Shown here: positions 42,712 to 58,532 of the stretch, one piece after another
Layout of the letters: the number at the start of each line of letters is the position of its first letter
Numbering within the stretch: the first letter of the stretch is position 1
Virus record (IMG/VR): IMGVR_UViG_3300045988_033140
Coordinates: 41,447 to 105,446 of that record
Source: a virus
Direction: 5' to 3' (one strand)
Length of the DNA stretch: 64,000 nt
Position numbers and translations under genes: made by a program
The notes under the pieces: generated by a model
What the model was told of the DNA's origin: nothing
What the model saw: the letters and a program-made list of their open reading frames with translations, nothing else
Database searches by the model: none

Positions 42712-43398
42712 TTATCCATAGTAGCCTCCATCGGGAGGATCTCGCTTATAAGATTTACAAAACTCAGGGACACCGCCACAATTAGGATAGGTATACATAC
42801 ACTTATCGCATCTTATGATAGGGCTTGACTCTTCAATCTATAGCTGCGCCTTACACTCCTCAACCTTTTCATTCATTTCCTTGATAACATCATCAAGAAG
42901 AACAGGATAACATTCATGAGAGTCAACTCCCACATGGTACATAAATGGAATTTCATTGTAGAAGTTGGAGGTCTGATGGGTATGACCAAAAAGATTACAA
43001 GTCACCTGCTTGAGAGACTCTTTCTCAAGGTTGCCGGTCAAAGTAGGATAATGAGAAGCATAGAAATGATACTTGCGGTAGGTAAAAGCGTAAGCATCAA
43101 ATACAGGAATACCAGCCTTAAGATAGGCTTCTCTACGATTAGGGGTATCATGGTTACCACCAACCACGAGCTTAAGACCATTCATGCGATTGAGCAAAGC
43201 AAGTCCTTCTTCGAGCTTATCAGCCCCACCAAGCATGAGGTCGCCGCAGATAATAAGTGTATCTTCCGGTGCCACACACTCATTATTCTTCTTTACGATA
43301 GTTTCATTCATCTCTTCAACGCTTTCAAAACCACGGGCTTTCCAGATGAACTCCTTATCGTGATTGAAGTGATAGTCGCTAGAAATCCAAATATTCAT
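42712..43398 (-). CDS. Calcineurin-like metallophosphoesterase with a C-terminal Cys-rich tail reached through 1 in-frame TAG
   Basis: Metallophosphoesterase motifs (DYHF, GDLMLGG, GNHD, FGHTH). The track ORF ends in TAG. The frame continues ..ECKAQL[Q]IEESSPIIRCDKCMYTYPNCGGVPEFCKSY.. to TAA. Confidence 0.6.
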
Positions 43399-43412
43399 TT
43401 TATCACCCTCTC

Positions 43413-43916
43413 TTAATGGTGCACACGCACCTCGATATTAGAAAATCCCCAATTGGTTTTAGGAAACTCTTTTTCAGTAGGAATAGAAAATCCCTTCTTC
43501 ATCTTCTTAATTGCGGAATCGGTGATTCTGGCAACGCCAGTCCGCTGAGCATTACGCTCAAGAGCGGTTTCGACAGGGACATCAATGACTTCAAAGGTCA
43601 ATTTGGTATGCGGATCTGCGATCAACCGACCAAGGAGCTTTGCACGAGAAGCGGGGCTAATATGAGTCGCATCCGCAAACACAACATCAATACCAAGTTC
43701 CATAGCTTCGTTAATCTGTCGGACAAATTCGTCGAATACTTCAACTTCTTTGTCAAAGTAGCTATCACGATCGGTCAAAATGGACTGCCGCACGAAATCT
43801 CTAGAGACTACGCAAGTGGTGCGATGTTCTTCTTCGATTCGTTCTACCTCTTGCTTCACCCAAGTAGATTTTCCGCTACCGGGTACTCCAACCATGACTT
43901 TTAGTTCAGTTGTCAT
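43413..43916 (-). CDS. P-loop polynucleotide kinase-like protein (T4 Pnk / PnkP kinase-domain-like)
   Basis: GVPGSGKST Walker A in a 167-aa kinase-fold protein. It is adjacent to the calcineurin-type phosphoesterase, a split Pnkp-like arrangement. Confidence 0.5.
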   Translation of the reverse strand: MTTELKVMVGVPGSGKSTWVKQEVERIEEEHRTTCVVSRDFVRQSILTDRDSYFDKEVEVFDEFVRQINEAMELGIDVVFADATHISPASRAKLLGRLIADPHTKLTFEVIDVPVETALERNAQRTGVARITDSAIKKMKKGFSIPTEKEFPKTNWGFSNIEVRVHH

Positions 43917-44179
43917 TATCTTAACCTCCGTTCGACTTCAGCCATCACCCAAGCAATATCTTCATCAGATACCTCGGTTTCAAACTGAATAGAGCAATTT
44001 TCACCTTTTACTCTTGCTTCAATGAGCAAATTAACAGCATCTTCAAGGTCCTGCTGATGCTCTATAAAAGGAGAAAAAGCTCGATTCTCTTGAGCACAAG
44101 AACATGGGACAGGAGACCAAAGGTCGGACTTGCATCTTGGACTATCGTGATAACCTAACATACCATGCGAATGAGTCAT
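43916..44179 (-). CDS. Hypothetical Cys/His-containing protein (87 aa)
   Basis: Intact ORF. Stop overlaps the kinase start. Confidence 0.4.
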   Translation of the reverse strand: MTHSHGMLGYHDSPRCKSDLWSPVPCSCAQENRAFSPFIEHQQDLEDAVNLLIEARVKGENCSIQFETEVSDEDIAWVMAEVERRLR

Positions 44180-44334
44180 TACTTTTCCTCCTGTTCAATA
44201 AACTGCTGAATGATAGCCATTGATTTTTCAATGTCATTTAGCTCGTCATCAATGAATACGCCGCTCCAATCCAGACTATCAATAATACCATCAAGGGTTT
44301 CCAACGCTTTAACAGCGTCATTTTTAGTGACCAT
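44179..44334 (-). CDS. Hypothetical small acidic protein (51 aa)
   Basis: ATG after AAGGAAG. TAA overlaps the next ATG (TAATG). Confidence 0.3.
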   Translation of the reverse strand: MVTKNDAVKALETLDGIIDSLDWSGVFIDDELNDIEKSMAIIQQFIEQEEK

Positions 44335-44368
44335 ACTTCATAACTTCCTTTCTTAACTTTCTATATAT

Positions 44369-44397
44369 ATTATAATATATATTTATAAAAAAATCAA
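44369..44397 (-). promoter_or_regulatory. Sigma70-like promoter (TTGATT-17-TATAAT)
   Basis: The -10 is at 44369-74 and the -35 at 44392-97, minus strand. It sits immediately after the terminator hairpin at 44395..44430. Confidence 0.5.
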
Positions 44398-44430
44398 AAG
44401 GTTCTAAGAATTAGAACCTTTTGATTTTTA
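44395..44430. terminator. Terminator hairpin (CAAAAGGTTCTAA-gaa-TTAGAACCTTTTG + ATTTTT)
   Basis: Seen directly. Confidence 0.65.
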
Positions 44431-44431
44431 T

Positions 44432-44913: not shown

Positions 44914-45744
44914 TTATTCCTCCTGACATTGGATTAGAGATTCGATATACTCACGTCCCTCTCCGACAAATAGCGGAATATTTTTATCAATTTCCCAGCT
45001 AGAGCGAGTTACACCATCGGTCTCAGTTGTAACCTTGATGCAACAAGAACCATGCTTATACATAGGATGAAAGTCTTCCCAAGAAATCCCTTTCTCCGTG
45101 ATTAACATCTCTTTGATTTTCTCACAAGATTTACCTTGGAGTTCTTTGTGAGAGAAATTAGCCTGACCTACCATCTGAATAGAATTGCGGGTTGCATCTA
45201 GCTGACGCCAATAGACAAGGTTGGTGACCTCTTCCTTGGGGATATTGAAACAACGAGCATCAAACATGGCGCCCATTTGTGCTTTTACTGCATAAGTCTG
45301 GCCCAAATCATCTTGTGGGTAAGGGTTATCCATAGTCGCATGAGCGGCATAATAATCTAGATTCCTATGCCGAACTCCTTCATTAAATGCTTTGTTGAAA
45401 GCCATCGTTGCCATAGAAGCAGCGATAGAGCACATTTTCTGTACCTCGTAATCAAACCAAGCAGAGCTGTTGAGCCGCTTGTAATCAACAAGGATAAGAG
45501 TGATTTCATCACTTTGGGTATACCCTAATACGCACCCTTGAATGTTTTCACAGAGATATTTCATGGTATCCTGCATCGCACTAATCAGCACATCGTCAAA
45601 AGGCTTACTGAAACCACGGGTAAAGGTGTGGAAAGCTTTACCGTCAATGCGAATTGCAACTGGGGTACGGCGCATTAACTTAGTCTTAGGAACGCTTTCA
45701 TAGAACTCTTTCATCCGAGTTCCAAGTTCATCATAAATAGGCAT
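44914..45744 (-). CDS. Thg1-like protein (tRNA-His guanylyltransferase family, 3'-5' nucleotidyl transferase)
   Basis: VAIRIDGKAFHTFTRGF and GYTQSDEITLIL match Thg1 catalytic motifs. ATG 10 nt after AAGGAG. Confidence 0.75.
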   Translation of the reverse strand: MPIYDELGTRMKEFYESVPKTKLMRRTPVAIRIDGKAFHTFTRGFSKPFDDVLISAMQDTMKYLCENIQGCVLGYTQSDEITLILVDYKRLNSSAWFDYEVQKMCSIAASMATMAFNKAFNEGVRHRNLDYYAAHATMDNPYPQDDLGQTYAVKAQMGAMFDARCFNIPKEEVTNLVYWRQLDATRNSIQMVGQANFSHKELQGKSCEKIKEMLITEKGISWEDFHPMYKHGSCCIKVTTETDGVTRSSWEIDKNIPLFVGEGREYIESLIQCQEE

Positions 45745-45772
45745 TTTCAATCTTCTCCTTTCTTATACATAT

Positions 45773-46112: not shown

Positions 46113-46394
46113 TTAAAATAAAACATCGCACTCAAACTGAACGCTATAGGCAGAACGAGGATGACTTTTACATCTATCAACCCACTCATAATGCCCCAAT
46201 ACAGCTTCTTCTCTAGTGGCATAACGTGCCACAATAACCATATTATGGTTTCCTCGCCAAACCGCGGTTTCATAACCTTGGTCTGCGGTCAGACAAGTGT
46301 CAATAGTATAATCATCAACCTGATCGCGCCCAATGAGATCGGAATCGTGATTGTTGTAAACAATACCAAATATTAAATCCATAAGATTATCCAT
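46113..46394 (-). CDS. Hypothetical protein (93 aa)
   Basis: Intact ORF. Confidence 0.4.
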   Translation of the reverse strand: MDNLMDLIFGIVYNNHDSDLIGRDQVDDYTIDTCLTADQGYETAVWRGNHNMVIVARYATREEAVLGHYEWVDRCKSHPRSAYSVQFECDVLF

Positions 46395-47118
46395 TGCGTT
46401 TCCTCTTTTCCTTCTTTTTCGTAGCTACATCAATAGTCTGTCGATGTACAGAGTAGATTTTTGAGGTAAGCCCATTCTTCATCAACTTATTTAGATTGAC
46501 TGGGCTGTAGTTAATTGCGTCAGAGCAAACATTTAGATGTCTGTCATCATTTTTGTGACGACGATCATGGACATGACCATGAATATTAAACACCCAAGGC
46601 ATCATAGGAAGAGGCTCATGGGAGAGAATGAGTTTTTCCCCAATCATGAGAGGTCCCTCATAGATCTCGTCAAATAGATTATTGTCCGCAAAGACTTCCC
46701 AATACTCAAAAGGGGAATGGAAGTCATACCCCTCGGTAATAGAATACTGACAACCGGGGTAGACGCGTTTCATTTCATCAAGAGCCTCAGATTTTTGAAA
46801 GACTTCTTTGGGGAACTTGCGAGAAATCTTTTTGCGCTCATAATTACTGCGGCCGGCGTCATGGTTCCCCATAATAAGTACCTTATAACCACGAAGTTTA
46901 GCGCACATAGCCGGGTCGCCGCAGTCTCCCAAGATAATCAGAACATCTTTCTTACCAACTTTGCTATTGATAAGTTTAACCTGCTCTTCATCGGAAGGAC
47001 GACCTGGAGTTCCAGCGGCGAGTTCTTTATCACCAAAATGAGGATCTGAATATACCCAAGTTGTCTGTCCATTCCATCTTTCGTTAAAGACTTTATACAG
47101 TCCGGGAATCATCACCAT
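46387..47118 (-). CDS. Calcineurin-like metallophosphoesterase
   Basis: DPHFGD, GDCGD and GNHD motifs. Confidence 0.65.
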   Translation of the reverse strand: MVMIPGLYKVFNERWNGQTTWVYSDPHFGDKELAAGTPGRPSDEEQVKLINSKVGKKDVLIILGDCGDPAMCAKLRGYKVLIMGNHDAGRSNYERKKISRKFPKEVFQKSEALDEMKRVYPGCQYSITEGYDFHSPFEYWEVFADNNLFDEIYEGPLMIGEKLILSHEPLPMMPWVFNIHGHVHDRRHKNDDRHLNVCSDAINYSPVNLNKLMKNGLTSKIYSVHRQTIDVATKKKEKRKRNG

Positions 47119-47855
47119 TCCTCCTTCTTAGAAAGGTCAATTGCGTCGGCAGCATTAAAGATATGTTCATCAAAGCTGTCTAAGTCTAACAATACAGTAT
47201 AACCAGTATACCAACTTGCACAATCCAAATCAACTTTGTGGTCTTGTGCATACCACCAAGCTCCACCATCCCAATCTGGAATTTCATCGCTCCAGTTATT
47301 TCGTTTTAACAGATATGGAATAGGAGTATGGCCGTGCACGCAAATTTCTTTATCACCAAAAATAGGCTCCTTAGAGTGCCAATGGCATCTATCCCAAAGT
47401 AAATCGTCGTCATTAGGGATAGCATCATCCTGCATTGGATTAAAGCCAGCATGACAGAGATGAATAGTGATTCCCTGTTCATTTACATATTTCTTATAGG
47501 TTGGTAGTTTCTTGAGATAATTCCACCAGCCAGTTTTCATTGGTTCTAAAAGCCAGTCAAGGAAAGTTTCTCCACCCCCATTTTGAGAAAGTAAAGCAAA
47601 GTTTTTCCCAAGTACTCCGCATCCTTCTCTCCGCACTTCATCTTCCATGGCTTTTACCAGCATATCTTCATGGTTGCCTTTAAGATAGATAAAACGCTTA
47701 TCTTGAGCAACTGCCTTGATAGTCTCCCAAGGATTTGGACCTCTATCTCCGGCATCGCCGAGAAAATAAACCGTATCATCGGGTTGTAAGAAATCCTGAA
47801 TCTGCTTCAGTAGATCCAATCTACCGTGCAAATCAGAGCACGCATATGTAGCCAT
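47112..47855 (-). CDS. Ser/Thr-protein-phosphatase-like metallophosphoesterase (lambda PPase / ApaH-like)
   Basis: DLHG, GDAGDRG and GNHE motifs. Confidence 0.7.
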   Translation of the reverse strand: MATYACSDLHGRLDLLKQIQDFLQPDDTVYFLGDAGDRGPNPWETIKAVAQDKRFIYLKGNHEDMLVKAMEDEVRREGCGVLGKNFALLSQNGGGETFLDWLLEPMKTGWWNYLKKLPTYKKYVNEQGITIHLCHAGFNPMQDDAIPNDDDLLWDRCHWHSKEPIFGDKEICVHGHTPIPYLLKRNNWSDEIPDWDGGAWWYAQDHKVDLDCASWYTGYTVLLDLDSFDEHIFNAADAIDLSKKEEW

Positions 47856-48277: not shown

Positions 48278-48306
48278 ATTATATAATATATTTTATAAAA
48301 AATAAA
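48278..48306 (-). promoter_or_regulatory. Sigma70-like promoter (TTTATT-17-TATAAT) fused to the terminator hairpin at 48304..48327
   Basis: Seen on the minus strand. Confidence 0.45.
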
Positions 48307-48325
48307 GAGAGCCGTAAGGCTCTCT

Positions 48326-49087
48326 TTATACCTCCCAATCGCGCGTTGAGTAATATCTAGGGCAAGAAGGCATCGGTTTTACCTTGTGGAGATTGCGCTT
48401 ATGTCGCTCTTCAATGTTTTTATAAACATCATAAGATGGATAATGTCCTTGCAGTAGGAAGTTATCGAGTTCATCATAGGTAAATCCAAGATTATCTTCA
48501 TCTGTCTTGCCACTAAGACCATCTTCTGGCGCTTTAAAGATAAACTCGTTAGGGATACCAAGTGCTTTGCCAATCTGCCGCACTTCTGAAACTGTATATT
48601 CAGATAGTACGGAGAAATCGCCAGCTGCGTCTCCGAACTTAGTGGAATAGCCAATAAAATCCTCGCTCTTATTACAAGTGTTTGCTACCCTGCCATGTTC
48701 ACGTGCGGCAATCGCGTAAAGGACGGCCATGCGGATGCGGGCTGGAGAATTAGAGGTAATCTGTGGAATGCTTTCGACCGAGCCTTCAAAATTATAGCCG
48801 ACGTCGATAGCATTATATAGAGATTTGCAAACTTCGTCGATATTAACCTCATAACTATCAATACCGAGATAGTCAATTACTTTATTGGCAACATCAATGT
48901 CATGCTGATTGCCCTGTGGCATTTTTACACCAATAACCCTATTCTTTCCGAGCGCTTTAACAAGCAGGGCCGCAGTTACGGTGCTATCTTTGCCACCAGA
49001 AATACCAATGATAGCTTTGCAATCTGGACCATTATTTACGAAGTAATCCTTAATCCAATTAGTGATATTGGTAATTACGTTCTCCAT
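48326..49087 (-). CDS. nadE: NH3-dependent NAD+ synthetase (NadE, PP-loop ATPase)
   Basis: PP-loop SGGKDS and typical length (253 aa). Confidence 0.7.
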   Translation of the reverse strand: MENVITNITNWIKDYFVNNGPDCKAIIGISGGKDSTVTAALLVKALGKNRVIGVKMPQGNQHDIDVANKVIDYLGIDSYEVNIDEVCKSLYNAIDVGYNFEGSVESIPQITSNSPARIRMAVLYAIAAREHGRVANTCNKSEDFIGYSTKFGDAAGDFSVLSEYTVSEVRQIGKALGIPNEFIFKAPEDGLSGKTDEDNLGFTYDELDNFLLQGHYPSYDVYKNIEERHKRNLHKVKPMPSCPRYYSTRDWEV

Positions 49088-49500
49088 GTTTTCAGTTCTC
49101 CTTCTGCTTCTAGTTTACTGTATAGCATATCTAATGCCGTGTAAGCGCTACCAAGTCCTGCTCTATCATCAAGCAAAATATTATAATACAGTTTTCTTGT
49201 TGGCTTACGCTTCTCAATCAGAACATCCTCATTGATTGCATCAAAAGGAATGTTATTCTGATTGAGATAATCTGCAATATATGGATATCGCTCTTCCTGA
49301 GAAGCACTAAATACCACGAGCTTAGCATAGGGCTGCCATTTCCGCAACATTTCACTTACACGCTCGTAAGTATAATCTTCGTCACGGAAATTATGAACCG
49401 TGTAATCAAAGTCGAAGGCGATAATAATATCACCATACCGCTTATATTCATCATAAAGTCTATCAACTACTCTATTGATGTCGAGGAATGGATCGTTCAT
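49075..49500 (-). CDS. Small HAD-like phosphatase/nucleotidase candidate
   Basis: HAD motif I FDFDYTV in a 141-aa protein. Confidence 0.35.
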   Translation of the reverse strand: MNDPFLDINRVVDRLYDEYKRYGDIIIAFDFDYTVHNFRDEDYTYERVSEMLRKWQPYAKLVVFSASQEERYPYIADYLNQNNIPFDAINEDVLIEKRKPTRKLYYNILLDDRAGLGSAYTALDMLYSKLEAEGELKTWRT

Positions 49501-51238: not shown

Positions 51239-52084
51239 TTAAATGATTTCTTGTAGTTTGTAGACAGTAATGTCATCACTAAAGAGGATATCATGTCCTA
51301 GCGAATCAGTTGTATAAACGTGTTTAATCAAACCACTTTCGAGTAACTCACCCTTGAAAATAGAATCTTCGCAGTGAGTGATGAAGAGGTAAATATCTGC
51401 GGCGCCCGCATCTTTCAGAGCCTGCGCTGAATGGTAGAATGTACCGCCCTTAGAACAAATATCATCAACAATGAGGATATTCTTGTCTTTTACAATCTCT
51501 CTATTGATAATATCCACACCGAGAATTTTGCCAGTTTCCCAATTTCTGCGCTTCATGCCGAAACTATAAGGGCGCTGACAATTCTCAGAATATCTCTTCA
51601 TAGCCCCTTCGTCGGGATAATACATGACAAGATTATCGTTTCCGATATCGAGTAAAGTGCGTTCAACGAACATAGTATTCGGACGATTTTCCACTCTATC
51701 AATTAGCGCAGGTGTTACATTACTATGAGCATCATAGATAACTACCTTGGTGAAATCAAGAGAGTTGATAATATCTGCAAAACTCTTGAGAGTGAATACA
51801 TCGGTTGCGTCCTTAACTCTATCCATGCGGGCGTGCGGACAGTAGGGCATATAAAGTGTGACATTTTTACAATCAGCATAGTGCTTCCGCAGGCAAATTA
51901 GCGAGAACAATTCTGCATCGTTGTTATACTTCCAGTAGATATCGACATTATAGGTCTTAAATAAGGAATCTTTAGGAGCAGTCATGTGCAGCGTTCCATC
52001 TGGAAAATGATCTTGACTAACTGGTATCCAAGTTTTATCCTCAAAACTCCAAGCTTTGTCTATTCTAGAGCGAACAAATAGCAT
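51239..52084 (-). CDS. prs: Ribose-phosphate pyrophosphokinase (PRPP synthetase)-like
   Basis: PRPP-binding loop VDDICSKGGT and PYCPHARMDR. Confidence 0.7.
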   Translation of the reverse strand: MLFVRSRIDKAWSFEDKTWIPVSQDHFPDGTLHMTAPKDSLFKTYNVDIYWKYNNDAELFSLICLRKHYADCKNVTLYMPYCPHARMDRVKDATDVFTLKSFADIINSLDFTKVVIYDAHSNVTPALIDRVENRPNTMFVERTLLDIGNDNLVMYYPDEGAMKRYSENCQRPYSFGMKRRNWETGKILGVDIINREIVKDKNILIVDDICSKGGTFYHSAQALKDAGAADIYLFITHCEDSIFKGELLESGLIKHVYTTDSLGHDILFSDDITVYKLQEII

Positions 52085-52095
52085 ATTAAGCCTCC

Positions 52096-52644
52096 TTAAA
52101 CAATTTCAATCTGGCAAGATTCCATAACTTTAAGAGCTGCTTCATGTGCTGCAACACTCGTACCAGCGCACCAGTCTTTGTGACACTTGATCTTCTGATT
52201 AGGACGAAAAGCCCGCATGATAAGAGCATTGGACACCACACAAATGTCGGTGCATACGCCGCAAATTTCAATGGTAGTATCTTCATCTACTGACATATTT
52301 ACAGACATACTTCCCCAAATGAAAGTGCCAAAGGTATCCTTATCGACGATGTAGAGATTCTTCACCTTGGAAACTCCATTAACGAGTTCAGGAATAATCT
52401 CCCATCCTTCAGTATCCTTGATACAATGCGGGACCGGTAGGAACTTTCCTTCCAATGTATCCAGATAATCTGGGCCATGGGTATCACGGGTGAAAATTAC
52501 CGTGTCATATTCATTGATGTGCGCAGCAATATTCTTCGCAGCCACTTGCGCGGCTTCAGAGCCAAGAGACCCTGTTACGAAATCGTTCTGCATATCAATT
52601 ACAATTAGAATTTTCTGCATAATATAGAAAACTCCTTTCCTCAT
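52096..52644 (-). CDS. Isochorismatase-family hydrolase, probable nicotinamidase (PncA-like)
   Basis: ILIVIDMQNDF and a catalytic Cys (CGVCTDIC). Confidence 0.6.
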   Translation of the reverse strand: MRKGVFYIMQKILIVIDMQNDFVTGSLGSEAAQVAAKNIAAHINEYDTVIFTRDTHGPDYLDTLEGKFLPVPHCIKDTEGWEIIPELVNGVSKVKNLYIVDKDTFGTFIWGSMSVNMSVDEDTTIEICGVCTDICVVSNALIMRAFRPNQKIKCHKDWCAGTSVAAHEAALKVMESCQIEIV

Positions 52645-52655
52645 TCTTTATATAT

Positions 52656-52684
52656 ATTATAAAATATATTATTATAAAAATAAA
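52656..52684 (-). promoter_or_regulatory. Sigma70-like promoter (TTTATT-17-TATAAT) fused to the terminator hairpin at 52683..52715
   Basis: Seen on the minus strand. Confidence 0.45.
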
Positions 52685-52719
52685 GAGACTCTTATCAGCT
52701 AGATAAGAGTCTCTTGTAT

Positions 52720-53118: not shown

Positions 53119-53274
53119 TTAATCTTCAAAATGATTGGCAAGGTGTAAAAACATAAAAGAAAAATTTCCTGCAATAAAACCAGTAATATAAATAGCAGAA
53201 GGAGGGACTATTGTTGCTAGCATAGAGCCAACAACAATAGTAATCAGCCACAGACCGTAGAAGATAATTCTCAT
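53119..53274 (-). CDS. Tiny membrane protein (51 aa)
   Basis: Its ATG overlaps the RNA ligase TGA (ATGA). One long hydrophobic stretch. The track ORF 53126..53509 in this region is considered spurious. Confidence 0.3.
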   Translation of the reverse strand: MRIIFYGLWLITIVVGSMLATIVPPSAIYITGFIAGNFSFMFLHLANHFED

Positions 53275-54539
53275 ACTTCGTCCTGTGCCTCCTCCATATC
53301 GGGAGTAGTCTCAGTCTCTTTGATAATACCCTCAAGTACCTTGAACTCGTAAGTCTTAGACTTGAAAGCAGTGAAGGTGCGGCGGTTAACGATACGAACC
53401 ACAACGCCCTCTTTAACATGAGTTTTGCCGATAGGATCGGCCAAGTCCTCGAAATACTTGTTAATGCGGTCCTGCAAGTCCTCGGCAGTAGTGAACTTGA
53501 AGTTCTCAATCACCGGGACACGATTAAAGCCATGCTTCTCACACCAAGCAGTAATCTCGTCAGGAGTCCACTCGCGCTGACCATTCTCGGAAGTAATGCG
53601 ATAAATCCACATATGAGACTCACCGGGCTTGCAGCCGTAGGAGAAGATAGACTTCTTACCGAACAACTTTTGGAAAGCCTTATCTTTTAGCTTGGAGTTA
53701 TCGCCGATAGGCATGATGGTATCGTTCTCAGAGGGACCGTAGTACCCCACTACCTCGTAAAAGACCTCCATACCAGGATCAAGATGGGGTTTCAATGCCT
53801 CATGGTGAGACATACGAAATAGATCATTGCCGTAGTAGCCCTGAGAGTTCTCAGTTACAACGCAACGGCGCGTACCGAGAACATAAGCCTGCTTCAGACG
53901 CTTCTTCATATGGAATAGACGACGGAAGAAGCCATTAGGTAGCTCAGCAAAGGTGTTCATGGATCGCTGAGAAGTGCCATGCATCTTAAGAGTCATATTC
54001 AGCTCATCGCCGGGACGGAACTTATCCAGATTGTATGCAAGCTGCTCGGTGTCAGTGTGCATTGCAAACTCAGGATAGGTAATACCCTCTGCCTTACGAC
54101 CCTTGTAGGAAGTCTTAGGAGTGGTGCTCGGAGTCTTACGCTTAGGGATATACTTACGGCAGAACTCCTTGCCATTGATAGTATTTACCTTATTTCCGTT
54201 CTTCCAATGCTGATTGCCAAAAACCTCATAGACACGCTCAAGAGAGATGACGATGCCAGAACTCTCGTTGCCACGAAGCTTGATAGCCCGCACGTGAGAG
54301 CTATTTTCCAAGTATCCGCCTTGAGGAGTGCCATCAAGATTCTTCCGATATAGGGTGAAAGCGTCACCGAACCATCTCTCGATCTCTCCGTCCGTAGGAA
54401 GATAAAGCACTAACTCATTCTCCTTCATATTGGGTCCAACAATAACACCTTCATTAAAACAATCTGCCAACCACAGATTATCAGAATTAGGATCTTTATG
54501 GAGATTATTCAGTTTTGTCACTAGAGCGTAATAAGCCAT
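53271..54539 (-). CDS. ATP-dependent RNA ligase (Rnl2/Rnl5-like nucleotidyltransferase with KxHG motif)
   Basis: Motif I LKMHGTS matches T4 Rnl2 (KIHGTN). N-terminal OB-like domain. 422 aa. GC-richer than surroundings. Its 5' end overlaps the upstream homing-endonuclease gene by ~38 nt, so the true start may be internal. Confidence 0.55.
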   Translation of the reverse strand: MAYYALVTKLNNLHKDPNSDNLWLADCFNEGVIVGPNMKENELVLYLPTDGEIERWFGDAFTLYRKNLDGTPQGGYLENSSHVRAIKLRGNESSGIVISLERVYEVFGNQHWKNGNKVNTINGKEFCRKYIPKRKTPSTTPKTSYKGRKAEGITYPEFAMHTDTEQLAYNLDKFRPGDELNMTLKMHGTSQRSMNTFAELPNGFFRRLFHMKKRLKQAYVLGTRRCVVTENSQGYYGNDLFRMSHHEALKPHLDPGMEVFYEVVGYYGPSENDTIMPIGDNSKLKDKAFQKLFGKKSIFSYGCKPGESHMWIYRITSENGQREWTPDEITAWCEKHGFNRVPVIENFKFTTAEDLQDRINKYFEDLADPIGKTHVKEGVVVRIVNRRTFTAFKSKTYEFKVLEGIIKETETTPDMEEAQDEV

Positions 54540-55254
54540 TTAATTCCTGTTCCTCCTCTTTACTAATTCGTTTATAGATAAAACCTTTATATGTATTTCT
54601 CTATCCATTTAATACTCGATAAATTGCTTTATCGGTCTTTGCTTCTGGGCAAAATTCTCGATACGCCGAAATTGCAGTAGGAAAAATAGCTAATAATTGA
54701 CCATCTTTATCATACTTGGCAATCGGCTATCTTCTTGCTTCCAGTGCCTTTTTCTTTGCATCTTCTCGATGACCATCTTGATAAGCTTGCTTTAATTTTT
54801 CACTTCGCTCTTCTTTTAAGGAAGGATTGTCGATAAACTTCTATTTTAGAGAGTTGCTAATCTTTTCATTTCTTTCGTGACTATAAGTCCGATTTTTAGC
54901 AGCTAAAGTCATATGTCGTCGATATTCTGGATCCTCCCATAGCAACTTAACAGATTCGCCTATCTATTTTCTAACTTCTTCCGTTTGATAATTTCCGCCC
55001 GGAGAGACATTGTAACCAAAATCTGTATCTAAAAGATTTAATTCTTTGATTGTGTCTATCTCTTTTTGTTGAATTAAATCTTCATTATCAGACTCTAATA
55101 TCACTTCTTTAGTTACATTTTCCCAGCCATATTTTTCTATAGCATATCCGACGCGCTATCCTTTATATCTTCCTGATGCTCGCTGTTCGATAGAATTTTT
55201 AGTAATTCCGCAGTATTTTTTCCCATTTGGGAAAGTGTATAAATAACAGATCAT
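54502..55254 (-). CDS. Free-standing GIY-YIG homing endonuclease (I-TevI-like with NUMOD-like region), 250 aa, about 7 in-frame TAG
   Basis: ATG 8 nt after AGGAGG. The N-terminus reads MICYLYTFPNGKKYCGITKNSIEQRASGRYKG[Q]RVGYAIEKYGWENV. It is followed by NUMOD-like KNRTYSHERNEKISNSLK[Q]K. The frame is open only if TAG is sense. No listed track ORF corresponds to this frame. Confidence 0.65.
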
Positions 55255-55628: not shown

Positions 55629-55847
55629 TTACTTAACCCCCTTGTAGGAAATGACCTCAAGATTTTCAATCTTTGTGGAAATAGATGTCTTACCAGTATA
55701 GACTACTGCAATCTTGGTGTTTCTATCAACGCAGATGACTTTACCAGTGCGACCGTCTCTCACTCTTACGATAGTTCCATCACAAACATAGGGCATCATA
55801 TAGCTATCTCCTCTCTTGTTACATCGTAATGTCGATACCTTTTTCAT
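55629..55847 (-). CDS. Hypothetical protein (72 aa)
   Basis: Intact ORF. Confidence 0.4.
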   Translation of the reverse strand: MKKVSTLRCNKRGDSYMMPYVCDGTIVRVRDGRTGKVICVDRNTKIAVVYTGKTSISTKIENLEVISYKGVK

Positions 55848-56223
55848 GCAGGATATTGATACACTCCTGCAAATAAGCGTCGTCGTGTTCAGGGTAAATC
55901 ATATTACCCTGCTTAGCAGATTCATAAATCTCTTCATACTTAGAATCAGAAATCCATGTATCCTCACCTAATGTACTTCCTCGCCAGTTAGGATTCTTCC
56001 AAATCTTATCTGGATGATAGCCACGCTTCTCCATCTCGTCCATAATCAGATAATGATAAGCGACAAGTAGAGCAGGGTCATGTGTAAAAGCGTAGTCTAC
56101 AGTTGCGTGTTTCTTGCCCCAGCCTTTTCCTCTCAAAGCCGCACATTCTCGATGCTGACCCAAGAGGCGCTGACGGTCAAGATAGGGAATAAGTTTTTGA
56201 TGCCAGATACGAATGGTTATCAC
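55819..56223 (-). CDS. Hypothetical protein, possibly pyrimidine-dimer DNA glycosylase (T4 endonuclease V-like)
   Basis: Loose similarity of WHQKLIPYLDRQRLLGQHRECAALRGKGWGKKH to the DenV N-terminal helix. Weak call. Confidence 0.3.
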   Translation of the reverse strand: MITIRIWHQKLIPYLDRQRLLGQHRECAALRGKGWGKKHATVDYAFTHDPALLVAYHYLIMDEMEKRGYHPDKIWKNPNWRGSTLGEDTWISDSKYEEIYESAKQGNMIYPEHDDAYLQECINILHEKGIDITM

Positions 56224-56280: not shown

Positions 56281-56369
56281 TAGATATTTATTTTGGCCAA
56301 AAGTTGATATACACTCATTATCATTTTTTAGATAACAATAGAGAAAATAATGAAAGGGGCAGATTGTCT

Positions 56370-56633
56370 ATGTATTCTCAGATGATGAGCGGAGAAAAAG
56401 TAACTCCCTATTTAGTGCGTCTAGTAGCTGATACTGAAGACGAGATTGCCACCCTTCCTACCCACTATGCCCCTGGCAGCACTTGCGAGGTTGTCGCAAC
56501 TTCTACAGTTTATAGATTGAACAACCAGGGTCAATGGATTAAACAAAAGTCAAGTGGTGGCGGAGGCGGTGGGACAGTTGTCGTTGAAGGCAGCTTAGCC
56601 GATATTGCAGACATTGATAAATTATTTGGTTAA
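56370..56633 (+). CDS. Hypothetical protein (87 aa) with Gly6 linker
   Basis: ATG 9 nt after GAAAGGGG. It lies inside the larger alternative-start ORF in the track. Confidence 0.4.
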   Translation: MYSQMMSGEKVTPYLVRLVADTEDEIATLPTHYAPGSTCEVVATSTVYRLNNQGQWIKQKSSGGGGGGTVVVEGSLADIADIDKLFG

Positions 56634-56646
56634 GGAGTGAGTCCTA

Positions 56647-56904
56647 ATGGCAGTCGCATTAGAAAACCTTATTGACCTTAACCTTTTATCTCACTATGAT
56701 ACAAAACTCAAAGAATGGGTTAAGGAACAGATTAAAAAAGGTGGAAGCATTGAAGTAACACAGCGTTCTGAGCTTCCTGAGGTAGGCGAAGAAGGCAAAA
56801 TCTACTTTGTAGAAGATGCCATCTTGCAATATACCGCAGCAAATGGCTATCAAAAGATCGGTGGAACTGGAAGTCCGCAGAAAATTGAGTGGCATGACTT
56901 TTAA
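56647..56904 (+). CDS. Hypothetical protein (85 aa)
   Basis: AAGGAG RBS. Plus-strand islet inside a minus-strand block. Confidence 0.45.
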   Translation: MAVALENLIDLNLLSHYDTKLKEWVKEQIKKGGSIEVTQRSELPEVGEEGKIYFVEDAILQYTAANGYQKIGGTGSPQKIEWHDF

Positions 56905-56908
56905 TTAA

Positions 56909-56947
56909 AAAGGGTCGAAGTATTTAATACTTCGACCCTTTATTTTT
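56909..56947. terminator. Strong bidirectional terminator (AAAGGGTCGAAGTATT-taa-TACTTCGACCCTTT + T8)
   Basis: 14-bp stem between the convergent genes ending at 56904 (+) and 56948 (-). Confidence 0.75.
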
Positions 56948-57742
56948 TTATCTACCCATATAATAGTTTGGATCCTTCTTCAACCACCAGTCGATGTTCT
57001 CAGGGTCTTGCCAACGCTCCCAAATTGTATCAAGAGATTCAATGTCATGGAAATACATTTCTGCGCCAGGTCGGATTAACCGATCGTCATGGTAGTGGCC
57101 GCAGAGCCATACTTCCCAATCAACTTTACTTTTGATATCTTCAAGCCAAAGTTCCATACTCTTATCTACTTTTGATTGGTCAAGACCAGAGAGAAACAAA
57201 TCTCTTGGCTCCCAAGAAATGGGACAAGTATGGGTTAGGACAAAATCGTAACGCTTGCCCTCAACCCATGCGCCAATTTCATCCATTTCTTTTTTGGTTA
57301 GCTGTTCGTCCTTGAACCAACCAGTCCAGCTATCTGTATCTTCTGGACGGCCTCCAAGTCGATACCACTTATCTACGGAATATGCCCCGCCGATAACAAG
57401 GACAGAGTAGTCATGAATGTTGTAGCTCTCTCCATCAAAAAGGTATCTGATATTCGGAAATTCTGGCTCATAATAGACGCCGCCATCGACGTCTTCGTCA
57501 TACATTTGCTCCATGGAAAGGTTTTCTGGACGCTCTTCATGGTTTCCGCGAACCGCGTAAATGCGGAAGCCTGTATTATTAACATTCCTTTTATTCTTGC
57601 GGTCTGTCTTATTCAGATAGAAATTAAGCCCCATATCGCCAAGAATAATCAATGCAGTTTCATCAGGAGGATATCCAATATGACTAAGTCTTTCAAGGAC
57701 TTGACCATGAGTATCTCCTGTAACAAGCCAGTTTTTAATCAC
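56948..57742 (-). CDS. Calcineurin-like metallophosphoesterase
   Basis: GDTHG, GDMGLN and GNHEE motifs. Confidence 0.65.
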   Translation of the reverse strand: MIKNWLVTGDTHGQVLERLSHIGYPPDETALIILGDMGLNFYLNKTDRKNKRNVNNTGFRIYAVRGNHEERPENLSMEQMYDEDVDGGVYYEPEFPNIRYLFDGESYNIHDYSVLVIGGAYSVDKWYRLGGRPEDTDSWTGWFKDEQLTKKEMDEIGAWVEGKRYDFVLTHTCPISWEPRDLFLSGLDQSKVDKSMELWLEDIKSKVDWEVWLCGHYHDDRLIRPGAEMYFHDIESLDTIWERWQDPENIDWWLKKDPNYYMGR

Positions 57743-58532
57743 TTAGGATTTCTCCTTTCAATGCACTTTTTACGATATTGTACTGTACGTCATCTAGCAG
57801 TTCATCAACTGCGGTATCAAAAGTTTTACCAACCTTTTCGCAGAAAGCGTCTGCAGTTTTAATTACATCAGCAATCGCTGCATCTGCGGAAGTGCGAGCC
57901 TGTTCAAGGTTAAAGTATCCCTGCTTAACAGCTACGAGAAACTCTGGATGCTTAGGATGCAAGCACGCTTCATAAGATTCACCACTAATGTATCTATGGA
58001 TGTACTCCTGAACTCGCAGGAGATGATGAAGCTGTTTTGGGTCGTATCCATATTCAGCCAATACTTCCAACTTACTAGGATACTCGTGTTCCATGGCATG
58101 ATACTTCTCCATAGCAATACCCTTCATAGTTTTAACTGCGCTATATGGAGAATAATGGGCAATCTGTTCGCGCGCCATAGTCAGGCGGCCCCATTCACTT
58201 TCAAAGAGAGGGTTTAAACAAGCATAAGGGGTAAACAGAATTTCAATGAAGTTAAGGTTTTGCTTGCGAAAGGTGGCGAGCATTAAGCGAATATCCTTTA
58301 AGTCAGTATGCTCGTTATTTGCTCTTACATGAGTGGTGCTAATAGGTTTCTTGTTGAGAACTATTTCATCAAAAGTGGGAGTAACAATCAGCTTTGTATC
58401 AACATCACTCTTAGGAGTTTCAAGACCATAGTTCTGAGAACCTTGCAGGAAAATACCGACGATTCTGGATTCGTCGAATCTCTGCAAACTTTCATCGAGA
58501 TGGTCATAGACTCTACTCATAACATCAGTCAT
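57735..58532 (-). CDS. Polymerase-beta-superfamily nucleotidyltransferase (minimal NTase fold), substrate unknown
   Basis: GS..DxD signature FLQGSQNYGLETPKSDVDTKLIV followed by a helical domain. ATG 9 nt after GGAGG. Confidence 0.5.
   Translation of the reverse strand: MTDVMSRVYDHLDESLQRFDESRIVGIFLQGSQNYGLETPKSDVDTKLIVTPTFDEIVLNKKPISTTHVRANNEHTDLKDIRLMLATFRKQNLNFIEILFTPYACLNPLFESEWGRLTMAREQIAHYSPYSAVKTMKGIAMEKYHAMEHEYPSKLEVLAEYGYDPKQLHHLLRVQEYIHRYISGESYEACLHPKHPEFLVAVKQGYFNLEQARTSADAAIADVIKTADAFCEKVGKTFDTAVDELLDDVQYNIVKSALKGEILSD

What the first reader, a model, noticed from the sequence alone, without database searches (positions are those of the whole stretch)
42712..58532. Multi-component RNA/tRNA end-healing and repair toolkit
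Within about 16 kb the phage encodes a P-loop polynucleotide-kinase-like protein (43413..43916) directly next to a calcineurin-type phosphoesterase (42712..43398), a split PnkP-like kinase/phosphatase pair. Nearby are an Rnl2/Rnl5-like ATP-dependent RNA ligase (53271..54539), a Thg1-like 3'-5' nucleotidyltransferase (44914..45744), a pol-beta-fold NTase (57735..58532) and three further metallophosphoesterases. Together these resemble the T4 Pnk+Rnl1 strategy for repairing tRNAs cut by anticodon nucleases, extended with 5'-end rebuilding (Thg1-like). In a phage that depends on a suppressor tRNA, tRNA integrity may be especially critical.
Basis: inference. Interest (0 to 1): 0.7.

Follow-up and report, generated by a model that had tools for sequence, protein, structure and literature searches.

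The report
Phage RNA-end repair gene island
A large gut-type phage that reads the TAG stop codon as an amino acid carries, next to its big tRNA gene array, a conserved set of enzymes predicted to heal, rebuild and re-join broken RNA ends; this kind of toolkit is already described for large phages.

Summary
Profile and structure searches give exactly the predicted families: a polynucleotide-kinase-type P-loop kinase (43413-43916), an adjacent metallophosphoesterase (42712-43398, complete only if TAG is read through), an Rnl5-type ATP-dependent RNA ligase (53271-54539), a bacterial-type Thg1-like 3'-5' polymerase (44914-45750), a RlaP-like pol-beta nucleotidyltransferase (57735-58538) and three more intact metallophosphoesterases. 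None matches Mre11/SbcD or DNA ligase; a separate DNA ligase sits at 31036-32184.

New here:
- The kinase and phosphoesterase form a conserved overlapping gene pair, and a natural fusion protein of the two exists.
- RlaP and the 56948-57742 phosphoesterase form a second conserved pair.
- Near-identical relatives carry 28-36 tRNAs, a tmRNA and a tRNA(CTA) just beyond the window.

About 43% of the span is unrelated cargo: an NAD+ salvage cassette, a homing endonuclease and a DenV-like glycosylase. The extra phosphoesterases have no demonstrated link to RNA. The anticodon-nuclease target is inferred, not shown. Such phage toolkits were described by Burroughs and Aravind (2016) and Iyer et al. (2021), so this is a new member of a known kind.

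The parts
43413..43916 (-). Polynucleotide 5'-kinase-like P-loop kinase (167 aa), the 5'-OH end-healing candidate
   Evidence: Pfam AAA_33 at 63 bits (cut-off 27). PHROG 505 'polynucleotide kinase' at 3.6e-20. PDB matches: C. thermocellum Pnkp kinase domain 4GP7 at 7e-6, T4 PNK 1LY1 at 1e-4. GVPGSGKST, SRDFVR and ERNAQRT align with the C. thermocellum kinase catalytic elements.
42712..43398 (-). Metallophosphoesterase MPE1. The core is 42838-43398. An in-frame TAG at 42838-42840 is followed by a 42-aa CxxC...C...C / YKRDPPDGGYYG tail that ends at a TAA at 42712. Candidate 2',3'-cyclic phosphodiesterase / 3'-phosphatase partner of the kinase.
   Evidence: Pfam Metallophos and Metallophos_2; PHROG 547 at 8e-40; all metal-binding motifs present. 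The tail is conserved or fused in homologues. The kinase-then-MPE1 gene pair is conserved, and the fusion protein P0421 exists.
44914..45750 (-). Bacterial-type Thg1-like protein (TLP), a template-dependent 3'-5' nucleotide-adding enzyme. The likely start is the ATG at 45744.
   Evidence: Pfam Thg1 at 103.5 bits. PHROG 4717 at 1.6e-90. B. thuringiensis TLP 4KGK at 6.8e-61, against about 1e-7 for eukaryotic Thg1. RIDG and SDE carboxylates are conserved. There is a 35-aa insertion at residues 126-160. It has its own promoter-like site and an upstream terminator.
53271..54539 (-). Rnl5-type (DraRnl/NgrRnl-like) ATP-dependent RNA ligase, 422 aa, with an N-terminal OB-like module and a C-terminal nucleotidyltransferase domain. 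The sealing step.
   Evidence: Pfam RNA_ligase over residues 183-391. NCBIfam TIGR02306 over residues 9-191. PHROG 968 at 2e-49. The AF2 model's Foldseek top 13 hits are all Naegleria RNA ligase (5e-13), against 5e-6 for other ligase families. K185 (KMHGT), E262, E377-GVVVR and K393/K395 are invariant in 31 homologues.
57735..58538 (-). RlaP-like pol-beta-fold nucleotidyltransferase, the candidate 3'-end nucleotide restorer. The likely start is the ATG at 58532.
   Evidence: Pfam RlaP at 22.7 bits (cut-off 23). PHROG 388 at 2.5e-21. G33-S34 and D45-x-D47 are invariant. AF2 pLDDT 93. Structural neighbours are phage nucleotidyltransferases (TM up to 0.78) and kanamycin nucleotidyltransferase. 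It co-occurs with the ligase in 24 of 50 anchored loci and is adjacent to it in Lysinibacillus phage LC76P1.
56948..57742 (-). Metallophosphoesterase MPE4. It overlaps the RlaP-like gene by 8 nt and forms a conserved RlaP-then-MPE4 pair.
   Evidence: Pfam Metallophos at 34 bits; PHROG 1649 at 1e-22. It is adjacent to RlaP in 23 related loci with RlaP identity of 48-97%.
59242..59547 (-). cREC_REC (cyclic-phosphate-processing receiver) domain protein, a candidate 2',3'-cyclic-phosphate opener.
   Evidence: Pfam PF20274 at 60.6 bits (cut-off 27). Present near RlaP and the ligase in 23 of 50 anchored loci. The family was predicted to process cyclic phosphates and is linked to RNA ligases in PMC7824862.
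47112..47855 (-). Metallophosphoesterase MPE3 of the lambda-phosphatase / ApaH / PPP clade (GDxxDRG, GNHE). Membership of the toolkit is uncertain.
   Evidence: Pfam Metallophos at 43 bits. PHROG 246 'NinI-like Ser/Thr phosphatase' at 2e-28. PDB: ApaH at 4e-4, PP1 at 7e-4, C. thermocellum Pnkp phosphatase 4J6O only at 0.034.
46387..47118 (-). Metallophosphoesterase MPE2, a distant paralogue of MPE1 that overlaps MPE3 by 7 nt. Membership of the toolkit is uncertain.
   Evidence: Pfam Metallophos. PHROG 547 at 2e-29, the same family as MPE1. 35% identity to MPE1 over 82 aa.

Best explanation
The region is a conserved RNA-end processing and repair island that lies next to the tRNA array of a roughly 140-150-kb TAG-recoded phage. 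The replication genes resemble those of SPbeta and Enterococcus phage EF1.

Proposed pathway (inferred):
1. A host ribonuclease cuts an RNA, most plausibly a tRNA, leaving 2',3'-cyclic-phosphate and 5'-OH ends.
2. MPE1, possibly with the cREC protein and/or MPE4, opens and removes the 3' phosphate.
3. The kinase phosphorylates the 5'-OH.
4. If nucleotides were lost, the RlaP-like enzyme adds one or two to the 3' end, and the Thg1-like enzyme rebuilds the 5' strand of a helix by templated 3'-5' addition.
5. The Rnl5-type ligase seals the resulting nick within the folded, duplex-like RNA.

Shown here: the family identities, intact catalytic motifs, conserved gene pairs, a natural kinase-MPE1 fusion, and the neighbourhood.

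Inferred: the substrates, the order of the steps and the counter-defence purpose.

The NAD+ cassette, the homing endonuclease and the DenV-like gene inside the span are separate cargo.
For: - Family assignments and catalytic motifs.
- The kinase-then-MPE1 genes overlap or abut in 34 related loci (some from the same contig), with kinase identity of 35-99%. This includes distant contigs L097-L100.
- P0421 is a single 341-aa protein that is 45% identical to the kinase over residues 2-144 and 46% identical to MPE1 over residues 165-340.
- RlaP-then-MPE4 is adjacent in 23 loci.
- Of 50 loci anchored on the gene at 62423-63943, 34 have RlaP, 27 the ligase, 24 both, 23 cREC and 12 Thg1 within 8-10 kb.
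- When the 4.4-kb NAD cassette is absent (L003, L004, L005, L008), the RNA genes lie closer together.
- Cultured phages repeat the links: Bacillus phage Kirov has the ligase (41% identity) next to a polynucleotide kinase, and Lysinibacillus phage LC76P1 has the ligase next to the RlaP-like gene.
- A separate ATP-dependent DNA ligase is present at 31036-32184.
- None of these genes has an in-frame TAG except at the MPE1 tail junction, so they can be translated before any code switch.
- Literature: bacterial Thg1 genes associate with polynucleotide kinase and RNA ligase (PMC2904730). RlaP adds 1-2 NMPs to damaged RNA 3' ends (PMC12776372). Phage RNA-repair sets are described in PMC7824862.
Against: - No activity or substrate is known for any of these proteins.
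- The Rnl5 exemplars are nick-sealing ligases of duplexes, not anticodon-loop specialists like T4 Rnl1 (abstract; entry titles).
- MPE1 belongs to a very broad phage phosphoesterase family (1366 phage records) with no assigned RNA role.
- Thg1-like genes stand alone among replication genes in about 55 of 80 related loci.
- The genes fall into several predicted transcription units rather than one operon.
- The RlaP score is just below Pfam's cut-off.
- The ligase reaches only 39.7 bits against a TIGR02306 cut-off of 151.
Confidence: 0.65

Rival explanations
1. The enzymes serve the phage's own 28-36 tRNAs and tmRNA rather than counter-defence: maturation and quality control. In particular, the Thg1-like enzyme would add G-1 to the phage tRNA-His, whose gene has T at position -1 but keeps the templating C73. 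The RlaP-like enzyme and the phosphoesterases would trim or rebuild 3' ends.
For: - Near-identical relatives have the tRNA array starting about 165 bp beyond the window. It includes tRNA-His(GTG), tRNA(CTA) and a tmRNA.
- In 10 close relatives the tRNA-His gene reads ...GCCA|T|GTGGCTG...CAGTCAC|C|CCA: no encoded G-1, C73 present.
- The closest solved relative, B. thuringiensis TLP, adds templated G-1 to C73-tRNA-His with kcat/KM of 5500 M-1 s-1 (PMC3061083).
- PMC2904730 left open whether viral Thg1 serves tRNA-His maturation or repair.
Against: - In a small test the T(-1)/C73 arrangement was not tied to Thg1. T5 and the T4-like Serratia phage CHI14 also have T at -1; neither genus appears among the organisms named in the truncated Thg1 hit summaries, and their genomes were not searched directly for Thg1.
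- Bacillus phage G, which does have Thg1, encodes G at -1.
- Bacillus phage G's tRNA-His found no counterpart in the other Thg1-carrying Bacillus phages.
- B. thuringiensis TLP prefers 5'-truncated tRNAs to G-1 addition.
- Kinase, cyclic-phosphate healing and ligation steps are not needed for ordinary bacterial tRNA maturation.
Confidence: 0.2
2. The span is a general accessory or counter-defence island whose genes act independently. The phosphoesterases would degrade nucleotide immune signals or Np4N caps, or dephosphorylate proteins. The NAD cassette rebuilds NAD+. The ligase and kinase would act on other nucleic-acid ends. Co-location would then reflect a permissive insertion zone, not a pathway.
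For: - The span holds an NAD+ cassette that behaves as an insertion/deletion with its own terminators, mobile homing endonucleases at different sites in different relatives, and a DenV-like gene.
- MPE3 is ApaH / NinI / lambda-phosphatase-like.
- The cREC allele is only 56-60% identical between genomes whose flanking genes are 94-99% identical.
- The Kirov neighbourhood also mixes ligase and PNK with Prs and NAPRT genes.
Against: The kinase-MPE1 fusion, two conserved overlapping gene pairs and the repeated ligase-RlaP-cREC-Thg1 neighbourhood across 35-60% identity argue for functional coupling of at least the core genes.
Confidence: 0.12
3. The genes process DNA ends (repair or replication): Mre11/SbcD-like nucleases, a DNA ligase and a DNA kinase.
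For: T4-type polynucleotide kinases also act on DNA (established knowledge). The neighbourhood contains DNA-metabolism genes: DenV-like, gyrase, PolIII alpha and a RecJ-like gene.
Against: - No phosphoesterase matched Mre11/SbcD in Pfam, PHROGs, NCBIfam or PDB.
- The ligase matches RNA-ligase profiles and the Rnl5 fold.
- A canonical ATP-dependent DNA ligase is encoded separately at 31036-32184.
- Thg1-like and RlaP enzymes are RNA enzymes.
Confidence: 0.03

Closest known systems
Phage T4 tRNA repair (Pnkp + Rnl1, with Rnl2 and the RlaP-family NrdC.11)
   Same: The logic is the same: 5'-kinase plus 3'-phosphate removal, then ATP-dependent sealing. It is phage-encoded, and a RlaP-family nucleotidyltransferase is present in the same genome.
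   Different: - The T4 phosphatase is a HAD (DxDxT) domain fused to the kinase. Here it is a separate calcineurin-type phosphoesterase.
- The ligase is Rnl5-type with an N-terminal OB module, not Rnl1.
- This phage adds Thg1-like and cREC proteins.
- The target nuclease is unknown.
Bacterial Pnkp (C. thermocellum Pnkp/Hen1; Capnocytophaga Pnkp1-Rnl-Hen1)
   Same: The order is kinase followed by a binuclear metallophosphoesterase. The kinase's best solved relatives are these proteins. The natural fusion P0421 reproduces the kinase-phosphoesterase architecture.
   Different: - It is split into two genes.
- MPE1 is of the PHROG 547 / YfcE / aq_1665 type, not the lambda-phosphatase type.
- There is no C-terminal ligase-like domain.
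- TIGR04075 scores 36 bits against a cut-off of 750.
- No Hen1 was seen among the genes scanned.
RNA-repair gene sets of large phages (Burroughs and Aravind 2016; Iyer et al. 2021, PMC7824862 section 3.4.9)
   Same: The parts list is the same: ATP-dependent RNA ligase, polynucleotide kinase, phosphoesterases (occasionally calcineurin-like), RlaP, sporadic Thg1, cRec, many tRNAs, and NAD+ salvage genes in the same genomes.
   Different: - This genome is below the jumbo-phage size range.
- It uses TAG as a sense codon.
- It has an Rnl5-type ligase, the kinase-MPE1 and RlaP-MPE4 pairs, and a TAG-gated tail on MPE1.
Bacillus phage Kirov and Lysinibacillus phage LC76P1 ligase neighbourhoods
   Same: The ligase is 39-41% identical. 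In Kirov it lies next to a polynucleotide kinase, with a nucleotidyltransferase, a Prs-like gene and an NAPRT-like gene within 8 kb. In LC76P1 it lies 250 bp from a RlaP-like gene.
   Different: The Kirov kinase is a 330-aa protein whose C-terminal part is unrelated to MPE1. No Thg1-like gene is annotated in the 19-kb Kirov stretch that was fetched.
Bacillus thuringiensis Thg1-like protein (PDB 4KGK)
   Same: E-value 6.8e-61, with conserved catalytic carboxylates. It is a template-dependent 3'-5' adder that repairs 5'-truncated tRNAs and adds G-1 opposite C73.
   Different: The phage protein has a 35-aa insertion at residues 126-160. Its substrates are untested.

Membership tests
Rnl5 (DraRnl/NgrRnl-type) ATP-dependent RNA ligase | N-terminal OB-like module preceding the nucleotidyltransferase domain | tested here: met
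   TIGR02306 matches residues 9-191 and Pfam RNA_ligase matches residues 183-391. Foldseek aligns the full length to Naegleria RNA ligase at E 5e-13; the next family is at 5e-6.
Rnl5 (DraRnl/NgrRnl-type) ATP-dependent RNA ligase | Covalent nucleotidyltransferase motifs I (KxxG lysine), III, IV and V | tested here: met
   K185-M-H-G-T, E262, E377-G-V-V-V-R and K393-x-K395 are invariant in 31 homologues. Assignment to the motifs is by pattern, not by a residue-level structural alignment.
Rnl5 (DraRnl/NgrRnl-type) ATP-dependent RNA ligase | Score above the curated NCBIfam TIGR02306 equivalog cut-off | tested here: not met
   39.7 bits against a cut-off of 151. This is a divergent relative, not an equivalog.
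Rnl5 (DraRnl/NgrRnl-type) ATP-dependent RNA ligase | Seals 3'-OH RNA / 5'-PO4 nicks in duplexes | not testable with these tools
   Needs biochemistry.
Polynucleotide 5'-kinase (T4 Pnk / C. thermocellum Pnk clade) | P-loop, plus catalytic Asp and Arg (S-x-D-x-x-R), plus an R-x-x-x-R lid | tested here: met
   GVPGSGKST, SRDFVR and ERNAQRT align to C. thermocellum GSSGSGKST, SSDFCR and ERNKNRT. Pfam AAA_33 scores 63 bits against a cut-off of 27.
Bacterial Pnkp (TIGR04075) | One polypeptide holding kinase, lambda-phosphatase-type phosphoesterase and ligase-like domains | tested here: not met
   There are two separate genes. TIGR04075 scores 36 bits against a cut-off of 750 and matches the kinase part only. 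MPE1's best solved relative is aq_1665 (1XM7), not the Pnkp phosphatase.
Bacterial Pnkp (TIGR04075) | Hen1 methyltransferase partner | not tested
   Not every ORF of the window was scanned. None of the roughly 45 proteins scanned matched a methyltransferase.
Thg1 / Thg1-like protein (PF04446), bacterial TLP clade | Pfam score above cut-off, conserved catalytic carboxylates, and closer to bacterial TLP than to eukaryotic Thg1 | tested here: met
   103.5 bits against a cut-off of 29.2. The RIDG Asp and the SDE pair are conserved. B. thuringiensis TLP scores 6.8e-61, against 7e-8 to 5e-7 for human, yeast and Candida Thg1.
RlaP (PF10127) RNA-ligase-associated pol-beta nucleotidyltransferase | Pfam score at or above the gathering cut-off | tested here: inconclusive
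   22.7 bits against a cut-off of 23. Some homologues at 64-96% identity carry a precomputed PF10127 hit and most do not. A Listeria phage homologue is annotated as this family.
RlaP (PF10127) RNA-ligase-associated pol-beta nucleotidyltransferase | hG[GS]...DxD active site and genomic association with RNA ligases | tested here: met
   G33-S34 and D45-V-D47 are invariant. It occurs with the ligase in 24 of 50 anchored loci and is adjacent to it in LC76P1.
RlaP (PF10127) RNA-ligase-associated pol-beta nucleotidyltransferase | Structural match to a solved RlaP | not testable with these tools
   No RlaP structure appeared in the PDB copy. The best matches were kanamycin nucleotidyltransferase and HalB at TM about 0.43. 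The AlphaFold database library was unavailable.
cREC_REC (PF20274) | Pfam score above cut-off | tested here: met
   60.6 bits against a cut-off of 27, covering profile positions 1-87 of 88.
T4-type anticodon-nuclease counter-defence (Pnkp + Rnl1) | Rnl1-type ligase and a HAD phosphatase fused to the kinase | tested here: not met
   The ligase is Rnl5-like; T4 Rnl1 scores only 2e-4 in the fold search. The kinase is a standalone 167-aa protein.
T4-type anticodon-nuclease counter-defence (Pnkp + Rnl1) | Restores tRNA cut by a host anticodon nuclease | not testable with these tools
   Needs infection assays.

The most novel reading that the evidence does not exclude
The island is a tRNA-maintenance system for a phage that switches the genetic code. 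It would keep the phage's own tRNA set, including the amber suppressor, functional.

It would have two unusual features:
1. The Thg1-like enzyme adds G-1 after transcription to a phage tRNA-His that lacks an encoded G-1 but keeps C73. That would be a eukaryote-style maturation step in a bacterial virus.
2. MPE1 is made in two forms. A short enzyme is made before the suppressor tRNA is expressed. A long form with a zinc-ribbon-like tail is made afterwards, so the code switch itself would remodel the repair machinery.
Probability: 0.15. Interest if true: 0.65.

Novelty: new member of a known kind. Interest (0 to 1): 0.4.

Why it matters
The finding shows that RNA-repair sets are not confined to jumbo phages. 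A very abundant family of metagenomic phages of about 150 kb, which read TAG as a sense codon, carries one next to its tRNA array.

It supplies testable units:
- a kinase-phosphoesterase pair with a natural fusion;
- a RlaP-phosphoesterase pair;
- an Rnl5-type ligase in a phage.

These could identify which host RNA-cutting defences act in the host community; that this is the gut is inferred only from the sample sources of the nearest public records.

It also offers a concrete system for an old question: are viral Thg1-like enzymes for tRNA-His maturation or for repair?

The overall concept is already in the literature, so the finding extends it rather than changing it.

Tried and rejected
- Megablast of the 16-kb span against cultured phages gave no match.
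- Sequence searches of the PDB with the ligase, its 31-sequence profile, the RlaP-like protein, its profile and MPE4 gave nothing meaningful. Structure prediction plus Foldseek was needed.
- The AlphaFold database library (afdb50) was unavailable.
- Rfam over the whole window gave no family, so there is no evidence for group I introns around the homing endonucleases or for Y-RNA-like partners.
- ARAGORN found no tRNA in the window. The tRNAs lie just outside it.
- A related-locus search with a left-edge gene found nothing.
- Kinase fusions were absent among the top 120 MPE1 homologues. One was found only by the exhaustive representative search with the kinase.
- Hypothesis that the Thg1-like gene tracks phage tRNA-His genes lacking G-1: a small test went against it. 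T5 and CHI14 have T at -1 (no Thg1 hit listed for either genus; not checked directly), and phage G has Thg1 and an encoded G.
- Hypothesis that the phosphoesterases are Mre11/SbcD-like, or that the ligase is a DNA ligase: rejected.
- In most relatives the Thg1 neighbourhood lacks other RNA-repair genes (L022: adenylosuccinate-synthetase-like, AAA_24 and DnaB genes). Thg1 is therefore not an obligate partner of the kinase or ligase.
- A literature search on DUF2828/TROVE was uninformative.

Full report
**What is there**

The finding's span (42712-58532) lies in a run of minus-strand genes with strong Shine-Dalgarno sites and TAA or TGA stops.

  - Pfam AAA_33 scores 63 bits and PHROG 'polynucleotide kinase' scores 3.6e-20.
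  - Its best solved relatives are the kinase domain of C. thermocellum Pnkp, T4 PNK and Capnocytophaga Pnkp1.
  - The P-loop, the S-x-D-x-x-R catalytic element and the R-x-x-x-R lid are aligned.
- Four proteins are calcineurin-type metallophosphoesterases with complete metal-binding motifs: MPE1 (42838-43398), MPE2 (46387-47118), MPE3 (47112-47855) and MPE4 (56948-57742).
- The 422-aa protein at 53271-54539 is an ATP-dependent RNA ligase (Pfam RNA_ligase; PHROG 968 at 2e-49).
- The 278-aa protein at 44914-45750 is a Thg1 family member (Pfam 103.5 bits; PHROG 4717 at 1.6e-90).
- The 267-aa protein at 57735-58538 is a pol-beta-type nucleotidyltransferase that touches the Pfam RlaP threshold (22.7 bits against 23).

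**Coordinates and the TAG codon**

The extension is real.
- The 42-aa tail (CxxC...C...C, then YKRDPPDGGYYG) is conserved with amino-acid changes in close relatives.
- It is fused with no stop in L068 and in many database homologues (P0164, P0183, P0236, P0237, P0178).
- P0130, at 80% identity, has Arg where this phage has TAG.

TAG is a sense codon elsewhere in the window. An NrdD-like gene, a RecJ-like gene, a RuvC-like gene, a lysin-like gene and two GIY-YIG endonuclease genes need one to fourteen TAG read-throughs. Except at the MPE1 junction, the RNA-end enzymes contain no in-frame TAG, so they can be translated under the standard code.

**Which families, precisely**

- *Ligase.* The N-terminal 190 residues match the NCBIfam model for the Deinococcus DRB0094 ligase, but far below its cut-off.
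  - An AlphaFold model (pLDDT 71) finds Naegleria gruberi RNA ligase, the Rnl5 exemplar, as its 13 best PDB matches over the full length (5e-13).
  - Rnl3, REL1, T4 Rnl2, Rnl1 and DNA ligases are at least seven orders of magnitude weaker.
  - K185 (KMHGT), E262, E377-GVVVR and K393/K395 are invariant in 31 homologues.
  - The protein is therefore a divergent Rnl5-type ligase, not Rnl1- or Rnl2-like. Deinococcus Rnl is described as a template-directed sealer of nicks whose 3'-OH strand is RNA (PMC1807946 abstract).
  - A separate ATP-dependent DNA ligase is encoded at 31036-32184.
- *Thg1-like protein.* It is of the bacterial TLP type. B. thuringiensis TLP (4KGK) scores 6.8e-61, against about 1e-7 for eukaryotic Thg1. 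The catalytic carboxylates are conserved and there is a 35-residue insertion.
- *Nucleotidyltransferase.* It has the invariant G-S...D-x-D site. Its high-confidence model (pLDDT 93) resembles phage 'nucleotidyltransferases' (TM up to 0.78) and kanamycin nucleotidyltransferase. No solved RlaP was available for comparison.
- *Phosphoesterases.* MPE3 belongs to the lambda-phosphatase / ApaH / PP1 clade. MPE1 and MPE2 belong to the broad phage 'phosphoesterase' family PHROG 547, and MPE1's best solved relative is Aquifex aq_1665. None matches Mre11/SbcD.
Iyer et al. predicted this family to open cyclic phosphates and found it linked to RNA ligases.

**Is the grouping meaningful?**

- *Kinase and MPE1.* In 34 related loci (some from the same contig), with kinase identity of 35-99%, the MPE1 gene directly follows the kinase gene.
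  - In distant contigs the two reading frames overlap by 8-19 nt.
  - An exhaustive search with the kinase found mostly standalone proteins of about 165 aa. It also found P0421, a 341-aa protein that is 45% identical to the kinase at its N-terminus and 46% identical to MPE1 at its C-terminus.
  - This is the kinase-then-phosphoesterase order of bacterial Pnkp. The 'split PnkP-like pair' is the best-supported part of the finding.
- *RlaP-like gene and MPE4.* They overlap by 8 nt here and are adjacent in 23 loci down to 48% identity.
- *Wider neighbourhood.* Of 50 loci anchored on the homologue of the gene at 62423-63943 with at least 8 kb downstream, 34 have the RlaP-like gene, 27 the ligase, 24 both, 23 cREC and 12 the Thg1-like gene.
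- *Cultured phages.* Bacillus phage Kirov has a 41%-identical ligase next to a polynucleotide kinase. Lysinibacillus phage LC76P1 has the ligase 250 bp from a RlaP-like gene.
- *Thg1 stands apart.* The Thg1-like gene stands alone in about 55 of 80 loci, for example among adenylosuccinate-synthetase-like, AAA_24 and DnaB genes in L022. It is a looser associate.

**What does not belong**

- *NAD+ cassette.* A 4.4-kb block (about 48302-52715) encodes NadE, a small DxDxT protein, an NAMPT/Namat-like protein, a Prs/Adps-like protein and a nicotinamidase.
  - It is bounded by strong terminator-like hairpins and has its own promoter-like site.
  - It is absent from close relatives L003, L004, L005 and L008.
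  - It resembles the published NAD+ reconstitution pathway NARP1, extended with Preiss-Handler-type enzymes.
- *Homing endonuclease.* A TAG-rich GIY-YIG gene (54505-55254) sits just upstream of the ligase. It is missing from L001 and L003. L001 instead has an endonuclease-like insert between the kinase and MPE1.
- *Other cargo.* A DenV-like glycosylase (55819-56223) and two plus-strand ORFs (56304-56904) also interrupt the span.
- *Overall.* About 43% of the span is unrelated cargo, and predicted terminators split the rest into several units.

**Surroundings**

Relatives 95-99% identical to the window carry an array of 28-36 tRNAs plus a tmRNA, starting about 165 bp beyond the window's right end. 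It includes a 91-nt tRNA(CTA) and tRNA-His(GTG). More distant relatives have tRNA(CTA) genes in the same array.

The tRNA-His gene has T at position -1, C73 and an encoded CCA. This suggested that the Thg1-like enzyme adds G-1, because B. thuringiensis TLP does this efficiently on C73-tRNA-His. A small comparison went against a simple link.
- T5 and a T4-like Serratia phage have the same T(-1)/C73 arrangement. Neither genus appears among the organisms named in the truncated Thg1 hit summaries, but their genomes were not searched directly.
- Bacillus phage G has Thg1 and an encoded G at -1.

I keep this idea as a rival explanation at about 0.2.

**Mechanism**

The most likely reading, at confidence 0.65, is a heal-rebuild-seal pathway for RNAs cut by host ribonucleases.
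1. MPE1, and perhaps cREC and MPE4, remove 2',3'-cyclic or 3' phosphates.
2. The kinase phosphorylates 5'-OH ends.
3. The RlaP-like enzyme restores lost 3' nucleotides. RlaP adds one or two NMPs to damaged RNAs (preprint PMC12776372).
4. The Thg1-like enzyme rebuilds 5' strands by templated addition.
5. The Rnl5-type ligase seals the nick.

Family identity, intact active sites, gene pairing and the fusion are shown. Substrates, the order of steps and the defensive context are inferred from T4, bacterial Pnkp and the comparative literature. MPE2 and MPE3 may have unrelated roles, such as Np4N or signal-nucleotide hydrolysis or protein dephosphorylation.

**Novelty**

Anantharaman et al. 2010 noted the Thg1 - polynucleotide kinase - RNA ligase association and viral Thg1. 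Burroughs and Aravind 2016 and Iyer et al. 2021 described phage sets of ligase, kinase, phosphoesterases (rarely calcineurin-like), RlaP, Thg1 and cRec, together with many tRNAs and NAD+ salvage.

This locus is a new member of that kind. Its particulars are:
- an Rnl5-type ligase;
- two conserved enzyme-phosphoesterase pairs;
- a TAG-gated tail on MPE1;
- a TAG-recoded, very abundant metagenomic phage family whose replication genes resemble SPbeta and Enterococcus phage EF1.

Interest is moderate, at 0.4.

Noticed in passing
window 48302-52715: An NAD+ salvage/reconstitution cassette on the minus strand:
- NadE (48326-49087)
- a small DxDxT protein (49075-49500)
- an NAMPT/Namat-like protein (49500-51221)
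- a Prs/Adps-like protein (51239-52084)
- a nicotinamidase-like protein (52096-52644)

It is bounded by terminator-like hairpins and is absent from close relatives L003, L004, L005 and L008. It resembles the phage NARP1 counter-defence pathway plus Preiss-Handler enzymes.
   Followed up: partly
window 7672-38944 (e.g. 11118-13370, 20186-21937, 8179-8661, 37523-38944): TAG is used as a sense codon. NrdD-like, RecJ-like, RuvC-like and lysin-like genes are intact only if 1-9 in-frame TAGs are read through. Genes in the finding's span otherwise end in TAA or TGA.
   Followed up: partly
window 54505-55254 and 29517-30476: Two GIY-YIG homing-endonuclease genes are packed with TAG codons (7 and 14). 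The first sits just upstream of the RNA ligase and is absent from some near-identical relatives. L001 instead has an endonuclease-like insert between the kinase and MPE1 (L001 12620-13395).
   Followed up: partly
L181 4354-19350; L185 394-13982 (relatives 95-99% identical; the array begins about 165 bp beyond window position 64000): An array of 28-36 tRNA genes plus a tmRNA (tag DNNYFDSHMAA). It includes a 91-nt tRNA with anticodon CTA and a long variable arm, which is the likely amber suppressor. ARAGORN also calls two tRNAs with four-base anticodons (taaa, tgtt).
   Followed up: partly
L185 2473-2550 (and L181-L191, L172): The phage tRNA-His gene has T, not G, at position -1, while keeping C73 and an encoded CCA. 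It starts 1 nt after the CCA of tRNA-Arg. The same T(-1)/C73 arrangement is seen in T5 and Serratia phage CHI14. Bacillus phage G and Burkholderia phage FLC9 encode G at -1.
   Followed up: partly
window 42712-42837: The MPE1 tail motif (CxxC...C...C followed by YKRDPPDGGYYG) is strongly conserved at the C-terminus of many phage phosphoesterases and matches no Pfam family. Here it is reached only through a TAG codon, which could give short and long isoforms.
   Followed up: partly
window 59242-59547: The cREC gene is only 56-60% identical to its counterpart in genomes whose flanking genes are 94-99% identical. It looks like a swapped or fast-evolving allele.
   Followed up: no
window 60455-63943: Three genes lie between the RNA-end genes and the tRNA array: a MoxR-like AAA_5 ATPase (60455-61486), a DUF7192 protein (61416-62303) and a DUF2828/DUF7788 protein (62423-63943). 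The last gene is conserved at 55-99% identity in 80 related loci. Their function is unknown.
   Followed up: no
window 38991-42653: A PIN-PhoH protein (38991-40364) and a flotillin/SPFH protein (41157-42653) follow the kinase-MPE1 pair. The same order (kinase, MPE1, Band_7, PIN-PhoH) recurs in the distant contigs L099 and L100; L097 also carries Band_7 and PIN/PhoH genes, but in a different arrangement.
   Followed up: partly
window 55819-56223 and 56304-56904: A DenV-like pyrimidine-dimer glycosylase gene (Pfam Pyr_excise at 7.5e-23). Next to it are the only two plus-strand ORFs of the region, which have their own strong terminator at 56909-56941.
   Followed up: no
L022 6896-7987: In a related phage, an adenylosuccinate-synthetase-like gene (363 aa) lies near the Thg1-like gene. 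It may be PurZ-like, which would suggest a 2-aminoadenine genome. This was not examined.
   Followed up: no
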